A stretch of DNA of 25,704 nucleotides from a virus. Lineage: Duplodnaviria; Heunggongvirae; Uroviricota; Caudoviricetes. The stretch is from IMG/VR virus record IMGVR_UViG_2681813320_000003, positions 1 through 25,704 of that record; one strand, written 5' to 3'. Shown piece by piece: positions 11,427-25,704 of the stretch. The position numbers and the translations under genes were made by a program. How positions within the stretch are numbered: position 1 is the first letter of the stretch; each line of letters opens with the position of its first letter. The notes beneath the pieces were generated by a model. That model ran no database searches. It was given only the letters and a program-made list of their open reading frames with translations, and had not been told where the DNA came from.

Positions 11427-13193
11427 ATGAACACCACACTGACACCCGCAGATCTCGATCCCCGTCGGCAGGCCATGCTGCTGTACTTTCAGGGATACCG
11501 CGTAGCCCGCATTGCTGAAATGCTGGGCGAGAAAGTTGCAACCGTTCACAGCTGGAAAAAACGCGACAAGTGGGGTGACTATGGGCCGCTGGATCAGATG
11601 CAGCTCACCACCGCCGCACGCTACTGCCAGCTCATCATGAAGGAGCACAAAGAAGGGAAAGATTTCAAAGAGATTGACCTGCTGGCGCGCCAGTCTGAGC
11701 GCCACGCGCGGATCGGCAAGTTTAACAATGGCGGCAACGAAGCCGACTTAAACCCTAACGTCGCCAACCGCAATAAAGGCCCACGCCGTCAGCCGGAAAA
11801 GAATGTTTTCACCGATGAGCAGATTGAGAAGCTGGAAGAAATCTTCCATTCCTCCATGTTCAACTACCAGCGCCACTGGTGGGAAGCCGGAAAAACCAAC
11901 CGCATCCGCAACCTGCTAAAGTCACGCCAGATCGGCGCGACCTTTTACTTTGCCCGTGAAGCCCTGATTGACGCCCTGCTTACCGGGCGTAACCAGATTT
12001 TCCTTTCCGCCAGTAAGGCACAGGCCCACGTCTTTAAGCAGTACATCATCGACTTCGCCAAAGAAGTGGAGGTGGAGCTGAAAGGCGATCCGATGGTGCT
12101 TCCTAACGGGGCCACGCTTTACTTCCTCGGCACCAATGCCCGCACGGCCCAGAGTTATCACGGCAACCTGTATCTGGATGAATATTTCTGGATACCGAAA
12201 TTTCAGGAGCTACGCAAAGTGGCTTCCGGTATGGCTATTCACAAGAAATGGCGGCAGACCTATTTTTCCACACCATCCAGTCTTACCCACAGTGCTTATC
12301 CGTTCTGGTCCGGTGCGCTGTTCAACCGTGGGCGCAACAAAGCTGACAAGGTGGACATCGACCTGTCCCACAGCAATCTGGCCCCCGGCCTGCTGTGCGC
12401 AGACGGGCAATACCGCCAGATAGTCACCGTGGAAGATGCGGTGCGCGGCGGCTGTAACCTGTTCGACCTCGATCAGTTGCGCATGGAGTACAGCCCGGAC
12501 GAATACCAGAACCTGCTGATGTGTGAGTTCGTGGACGATCTCGCGTCCGTGTTCCCGCTCAGCGAGCTGCAGGCGTGCATGGTGGACAGTTGGGAAGTCT
12601 GGACCGACTTTCATGCACTGGCCCTGCGCCCGTTTGGCTGGCGCGAAGTGTGGATCGGTTATGACCCGGCAAAAGGTACGCAAAACGGCGACAGCGCCGG
12701 GTGCGTGGTGGTGGCACCGCCAGCCGTGCCGGGCGGTAAGTTCCGCATTCTTGAGCGTCACCAGTGGCGCGGGATGGACTTCCGCGCCCAGGCTGACGCC
12801 ATCAAAAAACTGACCGAACAGTACAACGTGACATACATCGGCATCGACTCGACAGGTGTCGGTCACGGGGTTTACGAGAACGTGAAAGCGTTCTTTCCTG
12901 CCGTCCGGGAGTTTGTCTACAACCCCAACGTTAAAAATGCCCTGGTACTCAAAGCCTACGACATTATCAGTCACCGTCGTCTGGAGTTTGACGCCGGACA
13001 CACCGACATAGCGCAGTCATTTATGGCAATCCGTCGCGCCACCACCGCCAGCGGCAACCGCCCGACCTATGAAGCCAGCCGCAGCGAAGAAGCCAGCCAT
13101 GCCGATCTGGCCTGGGCAACAATGCACGCACTGTTTAACGAACCGCTGCAGGGCGAGTCCGCCAATACCAGCAATATTGTGGAGATTTTTTGA
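11427..13193 (+). CDS. P: terminase large (ATPase) subunit P
   Basis: 588-aa ORF, same size class as P2 gpP, divergent from O and followed by Q. Confidence 0.9.
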   Translation: MNTTLTPADLDPRRQAMLLYFQGYRVARIAEMLGEKVATVHSWKKRDKWGDYGPLDQMQLTTAARYCQLIMKEHKEGKDFKEIDLLARQSERHARIGKFNNGGNEADLNPNVANRNKGPRRQPEKNVFTDEQIEKLEEIFHSSMFNYQRHWWEAGKTNRIRNLLKSRQIGATFYFAREALIDALLTGRNQIFLSASKAQAHVFKQYIIDFAKEVEVELKGDPMVLPNGATLYFLGTNARTAQSYHGNLYLDEYFWIPKFQELRKVASGMAIHKKWRQTYFSTPSSLTHSAYPFWSGALFNRGRNKADKVDIDLSHSNLAPGLLCADGQYRQIVTVEDAVRGGCNLFDLDQLRMEYSPDEYQNLLMCEFVDDLASVFPLSELQACMVDSWEVWTDFHALALRPFGWREVWIGYDPAKGTQNGDSAGCVVVAPPAVPGGKFRILERHQWRGMDFRAQADAIKKLTEQYNVTYIGIDSTGVGHGVYENVKAFFPAVREFVYNPNVKNALVLKAYDIISHRRLEFDAGHTDIAQSFMAIRRATTASGNRPTYEASRSEEASHADLAWATMHALFNEPLQGESANTSNIVEIF

Positions 13194-14227
13194 TGGGAAA
13201 GAGTAAGAAGAACCGCGCTGCATCGACGAACCAGATTCAGCATAAAAGCCAGACTTCAGCCGAAGCATTCAGCTTCGGCGATCCCGTTCCTGTTCTGGAC
13301 CGCCGAGAACTGCTGGATTATGTGGAATGCGTACAGATGGACCGCTGGTATGAGCCGCCCGTCAGCTTTGACGGACTGGCGCGCACCTTCCGCGCTGCCG
13401 TGCATCATAGTTCCCCGATTGCAGTAAAGTGCAACATTCTGACCAGCACCTACATCCCTCACCCGCTGCTCAGCCAGCAGGCTTTTTCGCGTTTTGTGCA
13501 GGACTATCTGGTATTTGGTAACGCCTACCTGGAGAAACGCACGAACCGCTTCGGTGAAGTTATCGCCCTTGAACCTGCCCTGGCAAAATACACCCGACGC
13601 GGGTTAGACCTGGATACCTACTGGTTTGTGCAATACGGTATGACAACCCAGCCGTATCAGTTCACGAAAGGCAGCATTTTTCATCTGATGGAGCCGGACA
13701 TCAACCAGGAGATCTACGGCCTGCCCGGTTATCTTTCTGCCATTCCGTCCGCCCTGCTCAACGAGTCCGCCACGCTGTTCCGCCGCAAGTATTACATTAA
13801 CGGCAGTCATGCAGGCTTCATCATGTACATGACCGATGCCGCGCAGAACCAGGAGGATGTGAACAACCTCCGCAATGCGATGAAAAGCGCCAAAGGCCCT
13901 GGCAACTTCCGCAATCTGTTTATGTACTCGCCTAATGGTAAAAAAGACGGACTTCAGATTATCCCGTTGTCAGAAGTCGCAGCGAAGGATGAGTTTCTGA
14001 ATATCAAGAACGTGAGCCGCGATGACATGATGGCAGCACACCGAGTGCCGCCGCAAATGATGGGGATTATGCCTAATAATGTCGGGGGGTTTGGGGATGT
14101 GGAGAAGGCAAGTCGGGTATTTGTTCGTAATGAATTAATACCTTTGCAAAAACGTTTCGAAGAATTAAATTTATGGCTAAAAAATAATATTATTACATTC
14201 AAAGAATATCAACTATCCCTAGACTAA
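13190..14227 (+). CDS. Q: portal protein Q; last ~35 codons abruptly AT-rich
   Basis: 345-aa ORF overlapping the P stop (ATGA); P2 gpQ size. A composition break near 14110 suggests a recombination joint inside the 3' end. Confidence 0.9.
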   Translation: MMGKSKKNRAASTNQIQHKSQTSAEAFSFGDPVPVLDRRELLDYVECVQMDRWYEPPVSFDGLARTFRAAVHHSSPIAVKCNILTSTYIPHPLLSQQAFSRFVQDYLVFGNAYLEKRTNRFGEVIALEPALAKYTRRGLDLDTYWFVQYGMTTQPYQFTKGSIFHLMEPDINQEIYGLPGYLSAIPSALLNESATLFRRKYYINGSHAGFIMYMTDAAQNQEDVNNLRNAMKSAKGPGNFRNLFMYSPNGKKDGLQIIPLSEVAAKDEFLNIKNVSRDDMMAAHRVPPQMMGIMPNNVGGFGDVEKASRVFVRNELIPLQKRFEELNLWLKNNIITFKEYQLSLD

Positions 14228-14274: not shown

Positions 14275-15684
14275 TTACTCATCTACTCTGATTTTTTGTT
14301 TTTTATTATTTTGAGTTAAGACATTTATGGTAATAGATGTATACGGATGAAAGTCAGGCACTATACTTTTAACCTCTCCATTTTCAAGAAAATGATGTGC
14401 TATTGAAGGAAATAAATCAGGATCTACAGGATATTTAGCATTAGGATTATGATACATATTTAAACCTTCTGCCCATGTTTCTGTAATATCGCCTTCTTTC
14501 ACTTCAAAACTAAATGCTGCTGGATATAATGCCTCTGGGTCATGATCATGGCAGTAACCACTCCTAAATAATCTAAGGTCACTTCTTCCAAAACCAGCCA
14601 ATTTTCCCATCCGATTAAACTTCGATATAGTACCACTATTAGAACTAAGGACGGCCGAAATATTTTCAGACTCATCCAAGAAGAAAAAGCCTGAAGGAAT
14701 TTCCTTTTTCTCAAATTGATGCGATATAATTTTCTTAGTTGCTAAACTGTAACATCCATCTTCAGATTTAACATGCTCATAGCGAATACCATAAAGATAC
14801 TGCCAAAGTGCACTATGGGACCAAATCATAGAGTTTGGTTCATGAAAATCAGCAATTGCGAAAATTAAAGGATTCCCCTTAACATGTTCTAGATCCCAGT
14901 ATCGAGTTTTCTTTTTCAGTTTAGAATAGAGAGAACTTCCAAATTTAATCGGCATATAATTCTCTATTTTCTCTAGCAATTCTTCCTTACTTTTAGGTTC
15001 AGATAGCATTTCAGATGATTGATTAATATCATTCCCTGTTGGATTAACCGTTACAGCTTCAATGCAAATAGTATTACCATACTTACGTGCCACATAATCA
15101 GGAGCATTAAACTGCCTATCTAGCCAAAAGTGTTCCTCTCGTAAATATGCGAAAAGATATAACTCCCATAGCCGGGCATCAAAACCTGTTGTCTGAAACT
15201 GCTCTATAAAATTCCCGTCGACATCCTCAAAATGATTCATCATTTCCTTGATTATCCCTGTTGCAGGCGACCAGTTCGCGTATTTACCAAATAATGAAAA
15301 ATGATGATGAAGTTTATCTGGTGTAACTATAGGTGTGAATAAATCCATTGCTTTATAAGTTTCATCACCTTGTGGAAATACTTTTACGTTTAATTTAGTA
15401 TGCTTCCGCATTAATTTCTTTAGTTTTGCTCGTGCAGAATTCATTTCTGAAACACTAGTAAATAGGTCAATACATCTATATCTCCCACTTAAGTCTCTTG
15501 CTAAAACAATACCGCTATAATCTTCATCGATTTGATCCAATAATAGCGCCCCTAGCAGGAACTCTCTCGGACTACAGTACCACTCAAACTCATAGCCTAA
15601 AAGTTCAGTATTTGGCATTCTGGTCCAATCAACAAAAGCATTAAACCTCTCTTTACTCATTTTTTTTATATCAAGAAAAGACAT
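14275..15684 (-). CDS. hypothetical protein, AT-rich cargo (moron) gene; function unknown
   Basis: 469-aa uninterrupted ORF in markedly AT-rich DNA, with a GAGGT Shine-Dalgarno 8 nt upstream of the ATG. No Walker A or other motif recognisable by eye. Confidence 0.75.
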   Translation of the reverse strand: MSFLDIKKMSKERFNAFVDWTRMPNTELLGYEFEWYCSPREFLLGALLLDQIDEDYSGIVLARDLSGRYRCIDLFTSVSEMNSARAKLKKLMRKHTKLNVKVFPQGDETYKAMDLFTPIVTPDKLHHHFSLFGKYANWSPATGIIKEMMNHFEDVDGNFIEQFQTTGFDARLWELYLFAYLREEHFWLDRQFNAPDYVARKYGNTICIEAVTVNPTGNDINQSSEMLSEPKSKEELLEKIENYMPIKFGSSLYSKLKKKTRYWDLEHVKGNPLIFAIADFHEPNSMIWSHSALWQYLYGIRYEHVKSEDGCYSLATKKIISHQFEKKEIPSGFFFLDESENISAVLSSNSGTISKFNRMGKLAGFGRSDLRLFRSGYCHDHDPEALYPAAFSFEVKEGDITETWAEGLNMYHNPNAKYPVDPDLFPSIAHHFLENGEVKSIVPDFHPYTSITINVLTQNNKKQKIRVDE

Positions 15685-16005: not shown

Positions 16006-16239
16006 TTAATGCAGCCAGCTGTCGTCTTCCCACACCTTCTGCATAATTTTCATCACTTGTTTTCTTTCTTCGTCCAGTTGCAGTCCGGTTAGTTCCACAC
16101 CGTTAGAGCTACCTTTGCGAATGCGAATTACCGTTTTGGGATACAGGGGGCGCAGATTGCGGTAAAGCTCGGATTCAAGGGCGTCCAGGGTAGACTGGCT
16201 AATCTTCTGCTCTTTATCGATCATTATTTCAATGCGCAT
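16006..16239 (-). CDS. dinI: DinI-family protein (Tum C-terminal-like)
   Basis: From the internal ATG 16237-16239 the product MRIEIMIDK...LDALESEL...KIMQKVWEDDSWLH aligns by eye along its length with E. coli DinI (MRIEVTIAK...IDALAGEL...ILQETWESADDW). GAGGTG Shine-Dalgarno upstream. Confidence 0.75.
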   Translation of the reverse strand: MRIEIMIDKEQKISQSTLDALESELYRNLRPLYPKTVIRIRKGSSNGVELTGLQLDEERKQVMKIMQKVWEDDSWLH

Positions 16240-16249
16240 AAAAGTCACC

Positions 16250-16438
16250 TCAGCTGATGACATCCATTGAGCGGTTGTATTCGTGGGTTCTGATTTTTGC
16301 CATGAGTTCATCAGTCAATTCAGAAACCCACTGCAGAGCCAGCCCCTTCTCTTCATCACTACACTCACTAGCCGCTACAAGCTTAAGAAAAAAATCAATG
16401 CGCTGGAGCTTCAAAGACTCCAAAAAATAGTCCTGCAT
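16250..16438 (-). CDS. small protein, possible Tum N-terminal-like antirepressor moiety
   Basis: 62-aa ORF from ATG 16436-16438 with a strong AGGAGG Shine-Dalgarno, immediately upstream of the dinI-like gene and downstream of a LexA box. The longer track ORF (to 16540) would overlap the LexA box. Confidence 0.5.
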   Translation of the reverse strand: MQDYFLESLKLQRIDFFLKLVAASECSDEEKGLALQWVSELTDELMAKIRTHEYNRSMDVIS

Positions 16439-16591: not shown

Positions 16592-19006
16592 TTAATACAG
16601 GTTCCGCCACTGATCATCTTCCTGCAAACGCTGGTTCCGATAGAAGATACGCAGGCCTGCTCCTGACGGAATACTGCCTCCGCGAAGGAGTAAATCGACC
16701 TCTTTCTCGCTGCCATCAAATCCTCTGGACTTCAGCTCATACACGAGCTGCAGTCGCTGATGGTCTGTAATTCGCTGTTTGTAGTCTTTACGCCGTTTCG
16801 GTTTCACCAGGCGTAACCTTGCTGCCAGTTCCCTGCGCTCTTTTTTGCTCATACTGTGCAGGTAATCGTGCAACTCCTTGTCATCCATGCTGGTAATGTC
16901 CGTTCTGGGGTCCCCATCAGCTGATTTATCTTTCTCCTGTTGGTTCAAATTTTCAGCAAGGGGACAGTTATTGCCACGAGTCCAAGGGGCGCAAGCGCCC
17001 TGGTCGGCTGCCGCCTCCTGAACGTCAACGGCCTTACGAACCATTTTCCACTTCACTGCATGAGTGCAGATTTTGCCCTCTGCAATGGGTGACCAGATGC
17101 CATAAATACGAATGCCGTGATCGCCATAGGCGGTCGGCTCTTCGTTGATTTCATAAGCGGTTCTGATGAGGTGATATTTACGGGGAACCAGTACGCCGCC
17201 CTGCTTCATGATGTAGGTGGCAAAACAACCAGCATCAGCTGCAGCCAGAATGGCATCAAGGCGCGGGTTATCCAGTACCGGCGCACCTGCTTTTTTGTCA
17301 CCCTGTTGCCTTGCCACCTGACCAGCCAGCAATCGCAGTTCACGGTAAGCCTGACGCCCCGGAATGCCAAAGAAGCGGAATTGCTGAACACGATGCAGAG
17401 ACGCCCAGGCATTAACGTATTCAGCGTTATCACGCAGAGATTTACCCGTTTCCTTGCTGATCTCGCCAGCCAGACCACGCCCGTCAATGTTCTTACTGAT
17501 GTATTTCGCGATGTAGCTAGTCGGCGTTCCTTTGCGCGGGTTAATCAACTCAGACTTAAAGCGCGGCCCCGTGTTATTGCCCAGCTCCTCGCGGTCTTCA
17601 CGGATGGCAAACTTACGCAGTAATGCAGTGATGGCGCGGCGGTCTTTTTTGCGCATAAAACACAACAGGTGCCAGTGAACTGTGCCGTCATGATGCGGCT
17701 CAGCAACCCGCACGCCATACCAGCGCAACCCGGCTTTGTGCATAGCCTTACGAAATGCAGCAAACATGCCGACCAGATAATCACTGCTTTGTCTTACCGT
17801 CGCATTTGTCCAGTTCGGGTTGGGTCTGCCGTTATTTAGCGTGGAATGGAAACGTGACGGACAGGTGATGGTGTAGAAAACGGCGCAGTCACCGCGCATT
17901 TCCGCGATAAGTTCCAGACCTTTAACACAGGCCATCATCTCATTGCGGCGATGCGCAGGGTTGCTGCTGCTGGCGTTTACCACATCCTCCATGTCCAGCG
18001 TGTCGCCGTCTTCGTTCACCAGTTCATGAGAACGGAAAAACTCCAGCGACTTACGGCGCTGCTCACGTTTATGCATCACGGCTTCATAGCTGACATAAGG
18101 AGATGCTTTTTTGCTGACCAGGCAGACAGCGCGCAACTGCTCTTCCCGCCATTCGCAACGCATCTTCCATAATTTCCGGTACCACCAGTCAGCGCACAAC
18201 ATACGCGCCAGCGAACCCGGAATGAGTTCATAGGGCACGGGTTTACGGCGGTTTCTTTTCCGACGGAGTTGCTCAAACGCAGGCGGGATAACATCCAGAC
18301 GCAGGGTTTCCGCTACCACCTTTTCCCATGTCTTGCGGATTTCTTCTGGCTTAACGTCATCGGTGGCATACAAATCACCACAAGCTGCATCAAGGCACAT
18401 GCTCATATGCGCAGCGACAAGGGTAGACAGGCGCTTCACCTGATCCTGACTCATTTCAGGCAGGATAAGCAGGCCATCCAGCCCTTCATGGCTTGCCATA
18501 AAGCGAAAAGAAGCGGATAGCTGACTGTCGCGTACATGCTCCAGTCGTTCCAGACATGGCTTAATCGTCTCACGCAAATAGCGGGAATAAGCCTTTGGCC
18601 TGCCCAGGCTGCTGAAGTATTCAATACGTTGCATCAGCGGCTTGCTGATATGGGAAGGCTGGGCATTGACGTCCGCCAGAATGACCATATCTGGATTAAA
18701 ACGCTGCTGCTCATGCGCCAGCTTTGCCCGACTAATGAGCTTATCCTGCTCCATTTCGCGCTGGACAGGATCACGGGATTCATTAAAGAAATAACGCTCC
18801 CAGACCTGATCACTCAGTGCCTCGCGGCGCAGCTGTTCCTGCTCGTTATCGGCAGCGTACAGAGTGATCAGGTTTGAAAGCGCAGAAACCGGCGCAACTT
18901 CCGCCGGGTCCAGATAAGGGTTAATGGCCTTTTTCGGGCTGTTCCATGAGAACGATGCGGCAGCCTCGTTAAAGCCGCAGCAGTTGTTCATATCGGCATG
19001 GCTCAT
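16592..19006 (-). CDS. A: replication initiation protein A (rolling-circle endonuclease, P2 gpA family)
   Basis: 804-aa ORF with an HUH-type metal-binding motif ([13 protein letters not shown]) and a paired-tyrosine motif (YIAKYISKN); P2 gpA size class. Confidence 0.85.
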
Positions 19007-21804: not shown

Positions 21805-22437
21805 ATGTTAAACATCAGAATGGGTTCCGATACGGGAGGTAAGGCAGCTATTGAAAGGCTGCTTGAGGCTTATGGATTCACAACTAAGCAGGCATTAAGC
21901 GAGCACCTGAATGTCTCAAAAAGCACTATGGCAAACAGAGTGTTACGTGACAGCTTTCCTGCTGACTGGATAATTCAGTGCGCACTAGAAACCGGTGTTT
22001 CGTTGCTTTGGTTAGCTACAGGACAGGGAAGCATGAAAGGAGGAGCTGAGCCTGAGAAAAGTTCTCATAATGAGAACAAACAAGCAATTAAACCGTTATC
22101 CAAACTCATAACTCCAGCTATTCCTAAAGGAACCCTGGAGAATGGACAACTCAGTATTGATGAAGAGATTTTCCTAGACCACAGCATATTACCTGCAGAT
22201 TATGAAGAATCGATGTTCTTAGAAACCCCTACTGATTGTTATCTCATCGATAAATCAATTAAACAGGTCAGCAATGGATTCTGGCTTATCAATATTGATG
22301 GAATGATTATTGTTGCAAAAATCATGCGGATTCCCGGCAATAAGATTGTAGTAAATCAAGATGAAGCGTCTTTCGAGTGCTCTACTGATGATGTGGAAGT
22401 TATTGGGCGTGCAGTCAAAGTAATAAAGAGTATCTAA
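21805..22437 (+). CDS. cI: CI immunity repressor
   Basis: 210-aa ORF with an N-terminal helix-turn-helix-like region (TKQALSEHLNVSKSTMANRVLRD), located immediately upstream of int and co-oriented with it, as in phage 186. Confidence 0.8.
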   Translation: MLNIRMGSDTGGKAAIERLLEAYGFTTKQALSEHLNVSKSTMANRVLRDSFPADWIIQCALETGVSLLWLATGQGSMKGGAEPEKSSHNENKQAIKPLSKLITPAIPKGTLENGQLSIDEEIFLDHSILPADYEESMFLETPTDCYLIDKSIKQVSNGFWLINIDGMIIVAKIMRIPGNKIVVNQDEASFECSTDDVEVIGRAVKVIKSI

Positions 22438-22439
22438 AC

Positions 22440-23456
22440 ATGACTGTCAGAAAACAGCCAAACGGTAAATGGTTGTGCGAGTGCTATCCCAATGGACGCA
22501 ATGGCAAGCGCGTGCGTAAGCAATTTGCTACGAAAGGCGAAGCCATTGCTTTTGAAGGCTTCACAATGGAAGAGGTGAACAAAAAACCATGGCTGGGGGA
22601 AAAGGAAGATCGGCGACACCTATCAGAATTAATTGAGCAGTGGTATTCCCTGTATGGTCAAACACTCGCAGACCCCAAGCGCCTCATGGCGAAACTTAGA
22701 ATTATCTGTAATGGTCTAGGCGATCCCATCGCCTCAGAACTAACAGCCGGTGACTTTACGAAATACCGCGAAGCACGGTTAAAAGGTGAAGTACGAAATG
22801 AAGATGGCACGCTTATGTCGCCCGTTAAGCCCCGCACGGTAAACCTTGAACAGCGCAATCTATCATCGGTGTTCGGTACATTAAAAAAACTAGGACACTG
22901 GTCAGCACCAAACCCGCTGGCAGGACTTCCGACCTTCAAAATTACCGAAGGTGAGCTGGCTTTTCTTTCCGTGGACGAAATCAAGCGCCTGTTGGCTGCA
23001 TGTGCTGAATCTCAAAGCCCGAGCCTACTAATGATTGCAAAAATATGCTTAGCTACCGGCGCACGGTGGAGTGAAGCCGAAAACCTTCAGGGCCACCAAA
23101 TATCGAAATACCGAATTACTTATACAAAGACAAAGGGCAAGAAAAACAGAACAGTACCAATATCTCAAGATCTGTATCACGAACTCCCCAAAAACAGAGG
23201 GAAGTTATTCACGCCATGCAGAAAATCTTTTGAGCGTGCAGTAAAAAGAGCAGGTATTGACTTGCCAGAGGGCCAGTGCACGCATGTATTGCGCCATACA
23301 TTCGCTAGTCACTTTATGATGAATGGCGGAAATATTCTTGTATTGAGAGATATTTTAGGGCACTCAGATATAAAAATGACAATGGTCTATGCCCATTTCG
23401 CACCAGAACATCTTGAAGATGCTGTTACTAAAAACCCCTTATTTAACTTAAAGTGA
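22440..23456 (+). CDS. int: tyrosine integrase (P2/186 family)
   Basis: 338 aa with conserved catalytic-region motifs (ARWSEAENL; HVLRHTFASHF; LGHSDIKMTMVYAHF); starts 2 nt after the cI stop. Confidence 0.9.
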   Translation: MTVRKQPNGKWLCECYPNGRNGKRVRKQFATKGEAIAFEGFTMEEVNKKPWLGEKEDRRHLSELIEQWYSLYGQTLADPKRLMAKLRIICNGLGDPIASELTAGDFTKYREARLKGEVRNEDGTLMSPVKPRTVNLEQRNLSSVFGTLKKLGHWSAPNPLAGLPTFKITEGELAFLSVDEIKRLLAACAESQSPSLLMIAKICLATGARWSEAENLQGHQISKYRITYTKTKGKKNRTVPISQDLYHELPKNRGKLFTPCRKSFERAVKRAGIDLPEGQCTHVLRHTFASHFMMNGGNILVLRDILGHSDIKMTMVYAHFAPEHLEDAVTKNPLFNLK

Positions 23457-23465
23457 TAAATAAAA

Positions 23466-24671
23466 ATGCATATTCAACAAGAACTCGATGAAGAACTTAA
23501 TAATCTTTTTGACACTATTAGAAAAAAATCAAGTATTCGACCACCAATTGAGATTGAAAAAAACCTTACTTTGATAGATGACTTCGCTCTAAAATGCAGT
23601 AAATTCCGGGGTTGTTTAGTAGATTACATCCAGGAAAATGATAACAGGTTAAGTTTACGCTTGCGCAATAGACTTAGAGCTGTAGATATCATGCAGAAAG
23701 AAATCGTCTCGTGTTTAGAGTGTTTTTTATCAGGGGATATTAAGTCGGCATATGACTCATTTGAAAGTATGCTAGAGCCACGAACTATATCTCGTCATAT
23801 TGAAAATATATGCATACCTCTTTCTGACTTATGTAATGAAGATAAACCATTATTCCGCGTTAGAAAATCTGATACGCCACTTACATCAAGAAGAGATATG
23901 TTTCATATTCCGTTCAGTCAGCGTCACTTTGTTAGAGCACAGAGATTTTCAGTTGCTGGTCTACCCTGTTTATATTTAGGAACATCTCTTTATATATGCT
24001 GGAGAGAAATGGATAAGCCAGATTTTGATAAGCTATATATATCTGCCTACAAGATCGATAAAAATAATGACTCAAAGGTACTAAATATAGGACCTGATTT
24101 TTTATATAAACAGAGATCTATATTAGAGTCAAAAAGAAAGAACAAATATGATTTCAATACCAAACTCTCATATTTAGCACTTTGGCCTTTGATAATTGCA
24201 TGCAATTATTTAAAAAAATATGACAATGCTTCCTTTGTACAAGAATATATTATCCCCAATCTTTTGATGCAATGGATCAGTCGGAACAGCAATGAGAATG
24301 TTGTTGGTATAGCCTACCGCTCAACAAAATTACCTGCTAATGCCTTAGGTAGCAGAGGAATAAATGTGGTACTTCCTCCAAAAGTGCGTTACGAGGAGAT
24401 GGCCAATAATGAATTTTGTCCAAATCTAGCGAAAATTTTCAAATTCACATTGCCTGTATCTTGGCAGGTCCTAAAAACAGTTGAGTACGTGCCTGAATCA
24501 GTTGCACAATCCGATCGAGAGAATCTCAGCAGAAGGCTACGAAGAAGAAAAAATCGTGAGCTAACAGGAAGCATAGATGATGAAATTTTGAACATCTATA
24601 ATTTAACTGACTTTTATAAACTCGAAACTTGTATGGATGAAATTCAAGTATATGCCCATATTAAACCATGA
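23466..24671 (+). CDS. AT-rich cargo protein with RES-domain-like motifs (putative NAD+-targeting toxin or effector)
   Basis: 401-aa ORF starting 9 nt after the int stop. Motifs RFSVAGLPCLYLGTSLYICWRE and GIAYRST...GINVVLPP fit the RES-domain pattern. Marked drop in G+C relative to flanking phage genes. Confidence 0.55.
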   Translation: MHIQQELDEELNNLFDTIRKKSSIRPPIEIEKNLTLIDDFALKCSKFRGCLVDYIQENDNRLSLRLRNRLRAVDIMQKEIVSCLECFLSGDIKSAYDSFESMLEPRTISRHIENICIPLSDLCNEDKPLFRVRKSDTPLTSRRDMFHIPFSQRHFVRAQRFSVAGLPCLYLGTSLYICWREMDKPDFDKLYISAYKIDKNNDSKVLNIGPDFLYKQRSILESKRKNKYDFNTKLSYLALWPLIIACNYLKKYDNASFVQEYIIPNLLMQWISRNSNENVVGIAYRSTKLPANALGSRGINVVLPPKVRYEEMANNEFCPNLAKIFKFTLPVSWQVLKTVEYVPESVAQSDRENLSRRLRRRKNRELTGSIDDEILNIYNLTDFYKLETCMDEIQVYAHIKP

Positions 24672-24790
24672 TAGTAATGGCGACATTTTGGCGGCAGAGC
24701 ATTAAAAGCCTATAAAACGGACAAACACCAAATAACATTAACAATATGTTTTCAAACGAAATTTACTGTTTTTGTTATAGTAAAAATGGT

Positions 24791-24835
24791 ATGTAGGAAT
24801 TTCGGACGCGGGTTCAACTCCCGCCAGCTCCACCA
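24791..24835 (+). other. ssrA: 45-nt copy of the ssrA (tmRNA) 3' end; prophage att core
   Basis: atgtaggaatttcggacgcgggttcaactcccgccagctccacca matches the T-arm and acceptor end (including CCA) of enterobacterial tmRNA as I recall it. The upstream sequence is unrelated AT-rich DNA, so this is a fragment, not the gene. Confidence 0.8.
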
Positions 24836-24868: not shown

Positions 24869-24904
24869 AAAGCCCGCATAGCACAAGCTCTGCGGGCTTT
24901 TTTG
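24869..24904 (+). terminator. rho-independent terminator (ssrA-type) following the att core
   Basis: Hairpin aaagcccgca...tgcgggcttt followed by TTTTTTG. Confidence 0.55.
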
Positions 24905-25019: not shown

Positions 25020-25619
25020 TTGGCAAGAACGACACGCCCCCTGACCAACACAGAAGTACTGCGCGCTAAAGCGTTAGAAAAGGATCTAACGTTGCATGAT
25101 GGCGATGGTCTTTTTCTACTCGTTAAAACGAACGGTAAGAAGTTATGGCGTTTCCGTTATCAACGTCCGGCAACAAAGCAACGGACAATGATGGGGCTAG
25201 GAGCCTTCCCAGCCCTTTCACTTGCTGACGCCCGACGCTTAAGAGCGGATTACCTTTCCTTGTTAGCCAACGGAATTGACCCGCAAATTCAAGCTGAAAT
25301 TGCAGAGGAACAGCAGCAAATCGCACAGGACAGTATTTTCTCGACGGTCGCCGCTAATTGGTTTCAGCTCAAAAGCAAAAGTGTTACCCCTGATTATGCA
25401 AAAGATATTTGGCGCTCATTGGAAAAAGATGTATTCCCCGCCGTTGGTGAGATGCCCGTTCAGCAGATCAAAGCTAGAACATTGGTCGAAGCACTTGAGC
25501 CAGTCAAAGCTCGTGGGGCATTAGAGACTGTACGTCGTCTGGTGCAACGCATTAACGAAATAATGATTTATGCGGTTAACACTGGCTTGATTGATGCAAA
25601 CCCAGCATCAGGTGGGTAA
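25020..25619 (+). pseudogene. P4-family (CP4-57 IntA-like) integrase, truncated by an IS1 insertion
   Basis: TTG start with a GGAG Shine-Dalgarno. The 199-aa N-terminal half (MARTTRPLTNTE...DGDGLFLLVKTNGKKLWRFRYQRP...) is typical of P4-type integrases, which are about 400 aa; the frame ends at a stop created inside the IS1 terminal repeat. Confidence 0.75.
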
Positions 25620-25704
25620 TGACTCCAACTTATTGATAGTGTTTTATGTTCAGATAATGCCCGATGACTTTGTCATGCAGCTCCACCGATTTTGAGAACG
25701 ACAG
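25615..25704 (-). mobile_element. IS1: IS1 end (terminal inverted repeat plus adjacent sequence), element continues beyond the window
   Basis: ggtaatgactccaacttattgatagtgttttatgttcagataatgcccgatgactttgtcatgcagctccaccgattttgagaacgacag is the reverse complement of the IS1 right end as I recall it. Confidence 0.85.

What the first reader, a model, noticed from the sequence alone, without database searches (positions are those of the whole stretch)
23457..24790. Standalone 401-aa RES-domain-like protein carried between int and attR, with no visible antitoxin partner
Seen in sequence: an AT-rich ORF begins 9 nt after the int stop with no convincing Shine-Dalgarno, so it is probably co-transcribed with cI-int and expressed in the lysogen. 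It carries motifs matching the RES domain pattern (R...G.P..YLG.S......E, then YRS...G.NVVL) in the middle of the protein, with a ~135-aa N-terminal extension and a C-terminal tail. Established knowledge: RES-domain toxins (for example MbcT, Res of Res-Xre) degrade NAD+ and normally pair with an Xre antitoxin, which I do not see adjacent. Inference: a self-regulated NAD+-depleting effector, possibly abortive-infection or superinfection exclusion.
Basis: partly seen in the sequence, partly recalled or inferred. Interest (0 to 1): 0.75.

Follow-up and report, generated by a model that had tools for sequence, protein, structure and literature searches.

The report
Standalone RES-domain defence gene in prophage
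A 401-residue gene at the very end of a 186/Fels-2-type prophage encodes a divergent, partner-less RES-domain (NAD+-cleaving) enzyme. It is most likely an abortive-infection anti-phage effector, a relative of the recently described aRES defence proteins with a different N-terminal domain.

Summary
ORF 23466-24671 (+) encodes 401 aa, starts 9 nt after the integrase stop, is AT-rich (35% GC), and ends 164 nt before the end of the ssrA-derived attR core.

The RES call is supported:
- Pfam RES is sub-threshold on its own (11.9 bits against a cut-off of 23.2).
- A family profile matches bona fide RES proteins (hhalign 89.5%, E 2e-6) with the Arg/Tyr/Glu/Ser motif columns aligned.

No antitoxin exists. 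In 80 species-level loci no neighbouring gene family is conserved, and no overlapping ORF is conserved.

The int-attR slot is a cargo hotspot. Related prophages carry there an anti-phage dCTP deaminase, GapS1, divergent alleles of this family, or nothing.

A January 2026 preprint describes aRES, standalone RES proteins that defend by converting NAD+ to ADPR-1''-phosphate. This protein is a remote relative of aRES in the RES domain only. Its N-terminal helical domain is unrelated to the HEPN/RES-NTD1 domain that defines aRES.

It belongs to a large unannotated family (2,693 clusters) that includes SPbeta YopC and a SopEPhi gene. Function is inferred, not tested. I rate it a new variant of a known kind.

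The parts
21805..22437 (+). 186-type CI repressor, first gene of the lysogenic cI-int-cargo gene string
   Evidence: Pfam Phage_CI_repr 1.9e-30 and Phage_CI_C 3.5e-30. The same backbone occurs with other cargo or with an empty slot, so it is not a dedicated antitoxin.
22440..23456 (+). Tyrosine integrase, the left anchor of the cargo slot
   Evidence: Pfam Int_N 9.3e-29 and Phage_integrase 5.6e-24. Related int genes (>=80% nt identity) occur in 69 of 5,426 E. coli genomes.
23457..23465 (+). 9-nt spacer between the int stop and the cargo start; no terminator or promoter-like signal
   Evidence: Other alleles of the family start 14 nt or 4 nt after the int stop, or overlap it by 4 nt.
23466..24671 (+). 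401-aa standalone RES-domain protein (aRES-like); identical protein in phages RE2010, Cartapus and SE479_1PHIH2
23466..23840 (+). N-terminal all-helical domain (aa 1-125, five helices); presumed sensor or regulatory domain
   Evidence: Secondary structure of the model. No Pfam hit at E<=10. hhalign against the aRES N-terminal region gives 1.8% probability. Only non-specific helical-bundle matches in PDB.
23841..24485 (+). RES catalytic core (aa 126-340), with a roughly 50-aa mainly helical insertion at about aa 208-258
23850..23870 (+). Motif L-F-R131-V-R133-K-S; equivalent to the region-1 Arg of RES/ART enzymes (MbcT R27)
   Evidence: R131 is R in 127/133 and R133 in 131/133 representatives. 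They align with invariant R190/R192 of the bona fide RES family. The role of MbcT R27 is taken from PMC6436930.
23940..24008 (+). Motif Q-R160-FSVA-G165-L-P167-CL-Y170-LGTS174-LYICWR-E181: the 'R' and 'E' of RES plus the NAD+-binding Tyr
   Evidence: R160, G165, P167, Y170 and E181 are invariant in 133/133. They align with R223, G228, Y233 and E244 of the bona fide RES family. The Y-to-E spacing is 11, as in MbcT Y58-E69.
24306..24374 (+). Motif G281-IA-Y284-R-S286-TK...G-I-N300-VVL: the 'S' of RES and the NVVL strand
   Evidence: S286 is S/T in 131/133 and N300 is N in 129/133. The segment aligns to DGVSFKSTQ...GYNVVL of validated aRES from E. coli UC5 (BLASTP segment E 8e-4; hhalign).
24486..24668 (+). 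C-terminal helical tail (aa 341-401) with conserved Y378 and F383
   Evidence: No similarity to aRES. In one relative (P0149) the region beyond the shared N-terminal and RES part carries a type II restriction-endonuclease domain.
24672..24835 (+). Conserved phage-end arm and attR core (3' fragment of ssrA), the right anchor of the cargo slot
   Evidence: 78-99% identical in 11 related prophage ends whatever the cargo; it starts 3 nt after int where the slot is empty (L020). tmRNA partial match at 24756-24835. The published end of prophage Cartapus lies 165 nt after the stop codon.
24885..24899 (+). First terminator-like hairpin downstream, in host DNA just beyond the ssrA 3' fragment

Best explanation
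The gene encodes a single-polypeptide anti-phage abortive-infection effector. Its central domain is a divergent RES-type ADP-ribosyltransferase-fold enzyme with the full catalytic residue set. It is carried as accessory cargo in the int-attR slot of a 186/Fels-2-type prophage and is probably transcribed with cI-int in the lysogen. It is held inactive in cis, without an antitoxin, presumably by its own N- and/or C-terminal helical domains. On superinfection by another phage it would be switched on and would destroy cellular NAD+, most likely by phosphorolysis to nicotinamide and ADP-ribose-1''-phosphate as in MbcT and aRES. That arrests the infected cell and blocks the competitor.

Shown here: the gene, its anatomy, RES homology and fold, conserved catalytic residues, absence of a partner gene, and hotspot and defence-island contexts.

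Inferred: enzymatic activity and product, autoinhibition, the trigger, the defence phenotype, and co-transcription.
For: RES identity:
- hhalign of the family profile against 50 proteins carrying PF08808 gives 89.5%, E 2e-6, 153 columns. Against validated aRES from E. coli UC5 it gives 79.9%, E 1.4e-5, 171 columns.
- Sub-threshold Pfam RES hits recur in 10 of 19 close homologues and in distant members, down to E 9.5e-4. YopC scores 22.4 bits.
- The catalytic set is invariant or nearly so across 133 representatives.

Standalone:
- In 80 loci from different species no neighbour family occurs in more than 8 loci. Only 10 have a small upstream same-strand ORF, and these are unrelated to each other.
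- Overlapping ORFs are not conserved.
- One member is a single-gene integron cassette.

Defence context:
- The same slot holds an anti-phage dCTP deaminase (NCBIfam 420.5 bits, cut-off 400) and GapS1 (401.6 bits, cut-off 320) in sister prophages.
- Distant members sit beside a type I R-M system and a true aRES, beside MazEF with CTD10/MC6/DUF2326 genes on a mobile element with AcaB and RadC genes, and beside a PtuB-like HNH gene.
- One member is fused to a restriction endonuclease.

Precedent: standalone RES proteins defend by phage-triggered conversion of NAD+ to ADPR-1P with growth arrest (bioRxiv 10.64898/2026.01.28.702374).

Operon: a 9-nt gap with no terminator. Spacing to int is conserved in other alleles. 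int is transcribed in LF82 lysogens.
Against: - No experiment exists on this family.
- Direct Pfam, NCBIfam and PADLOC searches give no significant hit.
- hmmsearch against PDB and Foldseek against PDB and BFVD find nothing.
- hhalign probabilities (80-90%) are good but not decisive alone.
- Residue equivalence with MbcT is through alignment to other RES proteins and motif spacing, not through a superposition that I could inspect.
- RES enzymes are not uniform: ParT ADP-ribosylates a protein rather than depleting NAD+.
- The N-terminal domain differs from aRES, so regulation and trigger cannot be transferred.
- The gene was not among the Cartapus genes measured in LF82 RNA-seq, so expression in the lysogen is unproven.
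Confidence: 0.65

Rival explanations
1. It uses the same fold and the same defensive role, but different chemistry. The enzyme acts like ParT and ADP-ribosylates a specific host or phage macromolecule (for example Prs, or a nucleic acid) instead of bulk-depleting NAD+.
Against: The only standalone RES defence proteins tested (aRES) deplete NAD+ and make ADPR-1P. Most characterised RES toxins (MbcT, Res, NatT) are NAD+ or NADP degraders.
Confidence: 0.13
2. It is not an anti-phage system. It is a lysogenic-conversion or selfish function: a toxin that promotes persistence or stress dormancy of the lysogen (as NatT does), or that stabilises the prophage.
For: RES toxins were first characterised in persistence and toxin-antitoxin biology. 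The gene sits in the lysogenic operon.
Against: An addiction or toxin-antitoxin role needs an antitoxin, and none is conserved. The slot exchanges with validated anti-phage genes. Distant members lie in R-M and defence neighbourhoods and integron cassettes, not only in prophages.
Confidence: 0.1
3. It is a catalytically dead or repurposed RES-like scaffold, for example a decoy or binding protein, or it serves the phage's own lytic cycle or counter-defence.
For: It scores below the Pfam threshold. It carries a large insertion and extra domains. Its function is unknown in PHROGs.
Against: Every residue known to matter in RES enzymes is invariant or nearly invariant across a family spanning many phyla, which indicates selection for catalysis. 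It lies at the prophage end in the lysogenic transcription unit, not among lytic genes.
Confidence: 0.04

Closest known systems
aRES (antiphage RES-domain proteins; Osterman et al., bioRxiv 10.64898/2026.01.28.702374, January 2026)
   Same: Both are standalone proteins of about 400 aa with a RES domain in the C-terminal half, with no operonic partner, found in defence and mobile-element contexts. The RES cores are homologous (hhalign 79.9-89.5%), with the catalytic motifs aligned, including the ...STx...G-x-NVVL segment. A family member lies directly beside a true aRES gene in Mariprofundus.
   Different: aRES is defined by RES plus the HEPN/RES-NTD1 domain (PF18870), and the validated ones start with a Zn-ribbon. 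This protein has an unrelated five-helix N-terminal domain: no Pfam hit, and hhalign 1.8%. It also has a C-terminal helical tail and an insertion in the core. Its RES domain is too divergent for Pfam (11.9 bits). LF82 and B. subtilis, which carry family members, are absent from the published aRES list. It has not been tested experimentally.
RES toxins of RES-Xre type II toxin-antitoxin systems (MbcT, P. putida Res, NatT, VPA0770, ParT)
   Different: Those toxins are 144-250 residues in the solved chains and are neutralised by an adjacent Xre-type antitoxin whose C-terminus plugs the active site. Here there is no antitoxin gene, and the protein is 401 aa with flanking domains.
YopC of Bacillus phage SPbeta, the int-proximal 'unknown' ORF of Salmonella phage SopEPhi, and PHROG 7835
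   Same: They are true family members: tblastn E 4e-35 (YopC, 30% identity) and 6e-113 (SopEPhi, 47% identity); PHROG 7835 E 1.4e-198. All are prophage-borne.
   Different: All are uncharacterised. YopC is preceded by a 75-aa HTH protein, YopB, which has no counterpart here.
Prophage defence hotspots of P2-like phages (Rousset et al. 2022, PMC9122126)
   Same: It is a short, precisely bounded slot between conserved phage anchors, with high cargo turnover that includes validated defence genes.
   Different: The published E. coli P2 hotspot is next to cos; in this window that site holds a PD-T7-1 homologue. The int-attR slot of the 186/Fels-2-type lineage is a different location. That paper reports a cI-int hotspot only for Vibrio K139-like phages.

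Membership tests
RES domain (Pfam PF08808; ART-superfamily NAD+ phosphorylase fold) | Match to the Pfam RES model above its gathering score | tested here: not met
   11.9 bits, E 0.23, against a cut-off of 23.2, covering only aa 146-182. The best family members reach 19.7-22.4 bits. Even a profile of bona fide RES proteins fails to find solved RES toxins by hmmsearch, so HMM-level silence is weak evidence against membership.
RES domain (Pfam PF08808; ART-superfamily NAD+ phosphorylase fold) | Profile-profile homology to proteins that carry PF08808 | tested here: met
   hhalign A2 against A4: 89.5%, E 2e-6, 153 columns. RES-only sub-alignments: 87.6%. Against validated aRES UC5: 79.9%, E 1.4e-5.
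RES domain (Pfam PF08808; ART-superfamily NAD+ phosphorylase fold) | RES three-dimensional fold | tested here: met
RES domain (Pfam PF08808; ART-superfamily NAD+ phosphorylase fold) | Conserved Arg, Glu and Ser, plus the region-1 Arg and region-2 Tyr needed for activity in MbcT | tested here: met
   R160, E181 and S286 align with R223, E244 and S338 of bona fide RES proteins. R131/R133 and Y170 align with R190/R192 and Y233. All are conserved in 120-133 of 133 representatives. The mapping onto MbcT residue numbers is by motif and spacing only.
RES domain (Pfam PF08808; ART-superfamily NAD+ phosphorylase fold) | NAD+ phosphorylase or NADase activity | not testable with these tools
   Needs biochemistry.
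RES-Xre type II toxin-antitoxin system | Adjacent, co-oriented Xre-family antitoxin gene with a toxin-binding C-terminal domain | tested here: not met
   The upstream genes are the phage CI repressor and integrase, and these also occur with other cargo or none. No conserved neighbour in 80 loci. No conserved overlapping ORF.
RES-Xre type II toxin-antitoxin system | Small single-domain toxin | tested here: not met
   401 aa with N-terminal (1-125) and C-terminal (341-401) helical regions. Family median length is 374 aa.
aRES defence system (Osterman et al. 2026) | Standalone RES protein of 300-600 aa, not in an operon with a partner | tested here: met
   definition.
aRES defence system (Osterman et al. 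2026) | RES domain detected by profile-profile search at over 80% probability | tested here: met
   Tested by proxy. hhalign against an alignment of PF08808-carrying proteins gave 89.5% and 87.6%. hhsearch against the Pfam model itself could not be run.
aRES defence system (Osterman et al. 2026) | HEPN/RES-NTD1 domain (PF18870) N-terminal to RES | tested here: not met
   No Pfam hit at E<=10. hhalign of the N-terminal sub-alignment against the aRES-family N-terminal region gave 1.8% probability. There is no Zn-ribbon, whereas the validated aRES proteins have one and match the aRES-type alignment A4 at 100%.
aRES defence system (Osterman et al. 2026) | Phage-triggered NAD+ depletion to ADPR-1P and protection from phage | not testable with these tools
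   Needs infection assays and LC-MS.
Prophage-encoded defence hotspot cargo (as in Rousset et al. 2022) | Short locus between conserved phage anchors, with high gene turnover that includes known defence systems | tested here: met
   The anchors are the int stop codon and a conserved 164-nt arm. Cargo seen: this family (five alleles or remnants), dCTP deaminase (two), GapS1, two unknown genes, and an empty slot.

The most novel reading that the evidence does not exclude
This is the founding example of a second, very large clade of standalone RES immune effectors: 2,693 clusters at 50% identity, spread across Proteobacteria, Bacteroidota, Firmicutes, Acidobacteriota, Planctomycetota and others. 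Current defence finders and the published aRES definition miss it. It couples the NAD+-phosphorolysing core to a new helical sensor domain, and so to a different phage trigger. It is the dominant cargo of a previously undescribed int-attR defence hotspot in 186/Fels-2-type prophages, and it would also assign a function to SPbeta YopC and the SopEPhi int-proximal gene.
Probability: 0.5. Interest if true: 0.55.

Novelty: new variant of a known kind. Interest (0 to 1): 0.45.

Why it matters
If the inference holds, well-studied prophages (Fels-2-like RE2010 of Salmonella Enteritidis, Cartapus of the Crohn's-associated E. coli LF82, SopEPhi, SPbeta) each carry an unrecognised NAD+-destroying immunity gene.

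The share of bacteria that defend by NAD+ depletion would then be larger than the aRES survey counted, because this family falls below the Pfam threshold that the survey relied on.

RES chemistry yields ADPR-1''-phosphate, so such effectors would resist the common phage NARP1 NAD+-rebuilding pathway.

The distinct N-terminal domain offers a natural comparison for how one catalytic core is wired to different infection sensors.

The precisely bounded int-attR slot is a convenient anchor for mining further defence genes.

Tried and rejected
Searches that found nothing:
- Direct family searches: Pfam only sub-threshold, NCBIfam none, PADLOC none.
- hmmsearch of two family profiles against PDB: only spurious helical-bundle matches to the N-terminal region.
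- Foldseek against PDB and BFVD: nothing significant. The weak top hits were cholera toxin and LT A subunits and ART-like phage proteins at E>1, which I do not count as evidence.
- The AFDB library was unavailable.

Model quality: the first AF2 model, from 19 close homologues, was unusable in the catalytic core (pLDDT <50 at 137-192). It was replaced by a model built from 71 sequences.

Antitoxin hypotheses rejected:
- cI as antitoxin: the same cI-int backbone occurs with other cargo or an empty slot.
- An embedded or antisense ORF: positions and frames are not conserved in seven homologues.
- A conserved neighbour: none in 80 loci.
- An N-terminal domain that is a fused aRES NTD1 or Xre-like module: no similarity.

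Other checks:
- Membership of the published aRES set: the tested aRES sequences belong to a different family, and LF82 and B. subtilis are not in their table.
- Expression in the lysogen: the LF82 RNA-seq table omits this gene.
Full report
**Observation**

The ORF is real. It runs 23466..24671 on the + strand and encodes 401 aa from an ATG. The integrase ORF ends at 23456, so the two are separated by 9 nt with no recognisable Shine-Dalgarno. GC content falls to 32-38% over the ORF, against 43-52% in the adjacent phage DNA. No terminator-like hairpin or +strand promoter-like site was found between the cI gene and the end of the ORF; the first hairpin is at 24885-24899.

Upstream lie a 186-type CI repressor (21805-22437) and a tyrosine integrase (22440-23456). 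Downstream, 24756-24835 is a partial match to the 3' end of tmRNA. This fits an attR formed at ssrA. The published end of the identical prophage Cartapus in E. coli LF82 lies 165 nt after the stop codon.

The protein is 100% identical to proteins of Salmonella phage RE2010, Salmonella phage SE479_1PHIH2 and Escherichia phage Cartapus. The Cartapus depositors had already labelled it 'putative RES protein, NAD+ binding domain'. PHROG 7835, which it matches at E 1.4e-198, has no known function.

**Is it a RES domain?**

Direct searches are not sufficient:
- Pfam RES scores 11.9 bits against a cut-off of 23.2.
- NCBIfam and PADLOC give nothing.
- hmmsearch of family profiles against PDB sequences finds no RES toxin.
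- Foldseek finds nothing significant.

Three independent lines do support the assignment.

1. Sub-threshold Pfam RES hits recur throughout the family. They appear in 10 of 19 close homologues and in distant members down to E 9.5e-4. SPbeta YopC reaches 22.4 bits over profile positions 17-126.

2. Profile-profile comparison is significant. A profile of 133 family representatives matches an alignment of 50 proteins that carry PF08808 above threshold at 89.5% probability, E 2e-6, over 153 columns. It matches the experimentally validated aRES of E. coli UC5 at 79.9%, E 1.4e-5, over 171 columns. In these alignments:
   - R131/R133 pair with R190/R192.
   - R160, G165, Y170 and E181 pair with R223, G228, Y233 and E244.
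   - G281, Y284 and S286 pair with G333, Y336 and S338.

The residues shown to matter in MbcT are R27, R47, Y58 and E69, plus the eponymous S126 (PMC6436930). Their counterparts here are invariant (R160, Y170, E181) or at least 90% conserved (R131, R133, S286, N300) across representatives that share only 22-65% identity with the window protein.

A profile of bona fide RES proteins also fails to find MbcT by hmmsearch. The negative HMM results therefore reflect how divergent RES families are, not absence of homology.

**Anatomy**

- aa 1-125 form five helices. They have no detectable relative: no Pfam hit, and only non-specific helical-bundle matches.
- aa 126-340 are the RES core, with a roughly 50-residue mainly helical insertion at about aa 208-258.
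- aa 341-401 are a helical tail with conserved Y378 and F383.

**Is there a partner?**

No.
- The same cI-int backbone occurs with quite different cargo or none, so CI is not a dedicated antitoxin.
- ORFs overlapping the gene differ in position and frame in seven homologues.
- I fetched 80 loci from different species and clustered all neighbouring ORFs. No neighbour family occurs in more than 8 loci, and the largest is the integrase of the enterobacterial prophage arrangement.
- Only 10 loci have a small same-strand ORF within 150 bp upstream, and these are unrelated to one another.
- One member in Vibrio harveyi is a single-gene integron cassette.

**Context**

The slot is precisely bounded. 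The 164 nt that follow the stop codon are 78-99% identical in eleven related prophage ends. Where the slot is empty (L020), that segment begins 3 nt after the int stop.

Cargo seen between these anchors:
- this gene;
- divergent alleles of the same family (e.g. P0309 at 38% identity; L013, L016, L017) and a truncated remnant (L019);
- an anti-phage dCTP deaminase, twice, on the opposite strand;
- GapS1;
- two unknown genes.

The deaminase and GapS1 pass NCBIfam's curated cut-offs. Family alleles start 14 nt or 4 nt after the int stop, or overlap it by 4 nt. This argues for conserved co-transcription with int.

In LF82 lysogens cI and int are transcribed, with normalised read counts of 33 and 11.6 in overnight LB culture, against about 6-9 for the structural genes shown in that table. 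The RES gene was not in the annotation used, so its expression is unmeasured.

Distant members of the family lie:
- beside a type I R-M system and a true aRES gene;
- on a mobile element carrying AcaB and RadC genes, beside MazEF and CTD10/MC6/DUF2326 genes;
- in a CP4-57-like island near a small RES gene;
- in seven Bacteroidota loci, behind a GHKL-ATPase gene and a 220-aa gene, with a PtuB-like HNH gene further upstream in five of them.

One relative is fused to a type II restriction endonuclease domain.

The family is large: 2,693 clusters at 50% identity with E<=1e-3. It spans many phyla. The seven family genes I examined, from hosts as different as E. coli, Vibrio, Aeromonas and Mariprofundus, are all 32-36% GC.

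**Comparison with what is known**

Canonical RES toxins are small and are neutralised by an adjacent Xre antitoxin. That membership fails here on both counts.

A January 2026 preprint (bioRxiv 10.64898/2026.01.28.702374) reports aRES, standalone RES proteins from E. coli, Klebsiella and Enterobacter. They protect against diverse phages through infection-triggered conversion of NAD+ to nicotinamide and ADPR-1''-phosphate, with growth arrest. They resist the phage NARP1 pathway. They are countered by NARP2, by a NARP1-associated Macro-domain phosphatase, and by aRad1 inhibitors.

aRES is defined by PF08808 plus PF18870. The three validated sequences begin with a Zn-ribbon and belong to the family I had sampled as alignment A4 (hhalign 100%; sequences).

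The window protein shares only the RES core with them. BLASTP finds a single 45-residue segment. The N-terminal regions are unrelated (hhalign 1.8%). The published list of aRES genomes contains neither LF82 nor B. subtilis. I therefore file this as working like aRES, but not as a member under its published definition.

**Mechanism and confidence**

The best-supported explanation is a single-chain abortive-infection effector, confidence about 0.65. It would be made at low level from the lysogenic operon and kept off by its own flanking domains. A feature of a superinfecting phage would switch it on, and it would then consume NAD+.

The gene's anatomy, homology, conserved residues, lack of a partner, and context are shown. 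Activity, product, autoinhibition, trigger and phenotype are inferred.

Rivals:
- ParT-like protein ADP-ribosylation within the same defensive logic (0.13).
- A non-defence persistence or selfish role (0.10).
- An inactive scaffold (0.04).

**Verdict**

Its interpretation is supported as far as sequence and structure analysis can go.

The case is less novel than it would have been a year ago, because standalone RES defence is now described. It remains a distinct, large and unannotated variant with a new regulatory domain, sitting in a clean, previously undescribed hotspot. Interest 0.45.

Noticed in passing
window 14275-15684 (-): A 468-aa ORF lies between the ORF at 13190-14227 (portal by position; the portal is annotated at this point in Cartapus) and the DinI (16006-16311) and gpA-like (16592-19006) genes. 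This is the cos-adjacent P2 hotspot of Rousset et al. It matches the PADLOC model PD-T7-1 at E 1.4e-196 and has no Pfam or NCBIfam hit. The prophage therefore carries a second, known defence gene.
   Followed up: partly
window 25020-25704: A second integrase gene lies just beyond attR, so two elements sit in tandem at ssrA. It is cut off at about 25615 by the end of an IS1 element. The last 90 nt of the window are 100% identical to the end of the annotated IS1A in locus L019.
   Followed up: partly
window 23457-24835; loci L003, L004, L013-L020: The int-attR interval of this prophage lineage is a precisely bounded cargo slot, running from the int stop codon to a conserved 164-nt arm. It holds the RES-like family, an anti-phage dCTP deaminase, GapS1, unknown genes of 222, 300 and 339 aa, or nothing. 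The unknown genes are candidate defence genes.
   Followed up: partly
L019 4603-5292 and 2396-3093: In E. coli PK5 the slot holds only the C-terminal 229 aa of a family member, starting at MDKPDFDKLY. The integrase is interrupted by IS1A. This is a decaying copy of the prophage.
   Followed up: partly
P0149 (611 aa; no locus fetched): One family member carries a C-terminal LlaMI/MvaI-BcnI-type restriction endonuclease domain after the N-terminal and RES part: Pfam RE_LlaMI 2.8e-42 and PADLOC REase_II 8.3e-39. It appears to be a two-effector fusion.
   Followed up: partly
L001 3276-4939 (Bacillus phage SPbeta): YopC is a member of the family (30% identity, E 4e-35). About 100 nt upstream lies yopB, a 75-aa Cro/C1-type HTH protein. 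No HTH neighbour family recurred in the neighbour clustering of the 80 other loci. Whether YopB regulates or neutralises YopC is open.
   Followed up: partly
L010 4599-7152 (Mariprofundus ferrooxydans): A bona fide aRES-type gene (PF18870 plus PF08808, 5.7e-17) and a member of the window's family lie side by side, immediately after a type I R-M operon. Two different standalone RES effectors share one defence island.
   Followed up: partly
L006 6001-7140 (Vibrio harveyi chromosome): A family member sits as a single-gene cassette in an array of short genes separated by repeated ORFs of about 30 codons. The array looks like a chromosomal integron cassette array.
   Followed up: no
L057 87-2912 and six similar Bacteroidota loci: In seven loci the family gene follows a conserved pair: a GHKL (HATPase_c_3) ATPase of about 500 aa and a 220-aa protein of unknown family. 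In five of the seven a PtuB-like HNH nuclease lies further upstream. This may be a multi-gene system or a conserved defence island.
   Followed up: partly
window 23466-24671; L006, L009, L010, L011, L013, L016: The seven family genes examined are all 32-36% GC, in hosts as different as E. coli, Vibrio, Aeromonas, Desulfobulbus and Mariprofundus. The cause was not examined.
   Followed up: no
L002 6494-6976 (phage Cartapus; other side of attP, outside this window): The 'putative exonuclease' gene lies across attP from the RES gene. It has only a weak BRCT hit. It was the most highly expressed Cartapus gene in LF82 lysogens, about 15-fold above background (PMC9928086). It is another att-proximal accessory gene of unknown function.
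   Followed up: no
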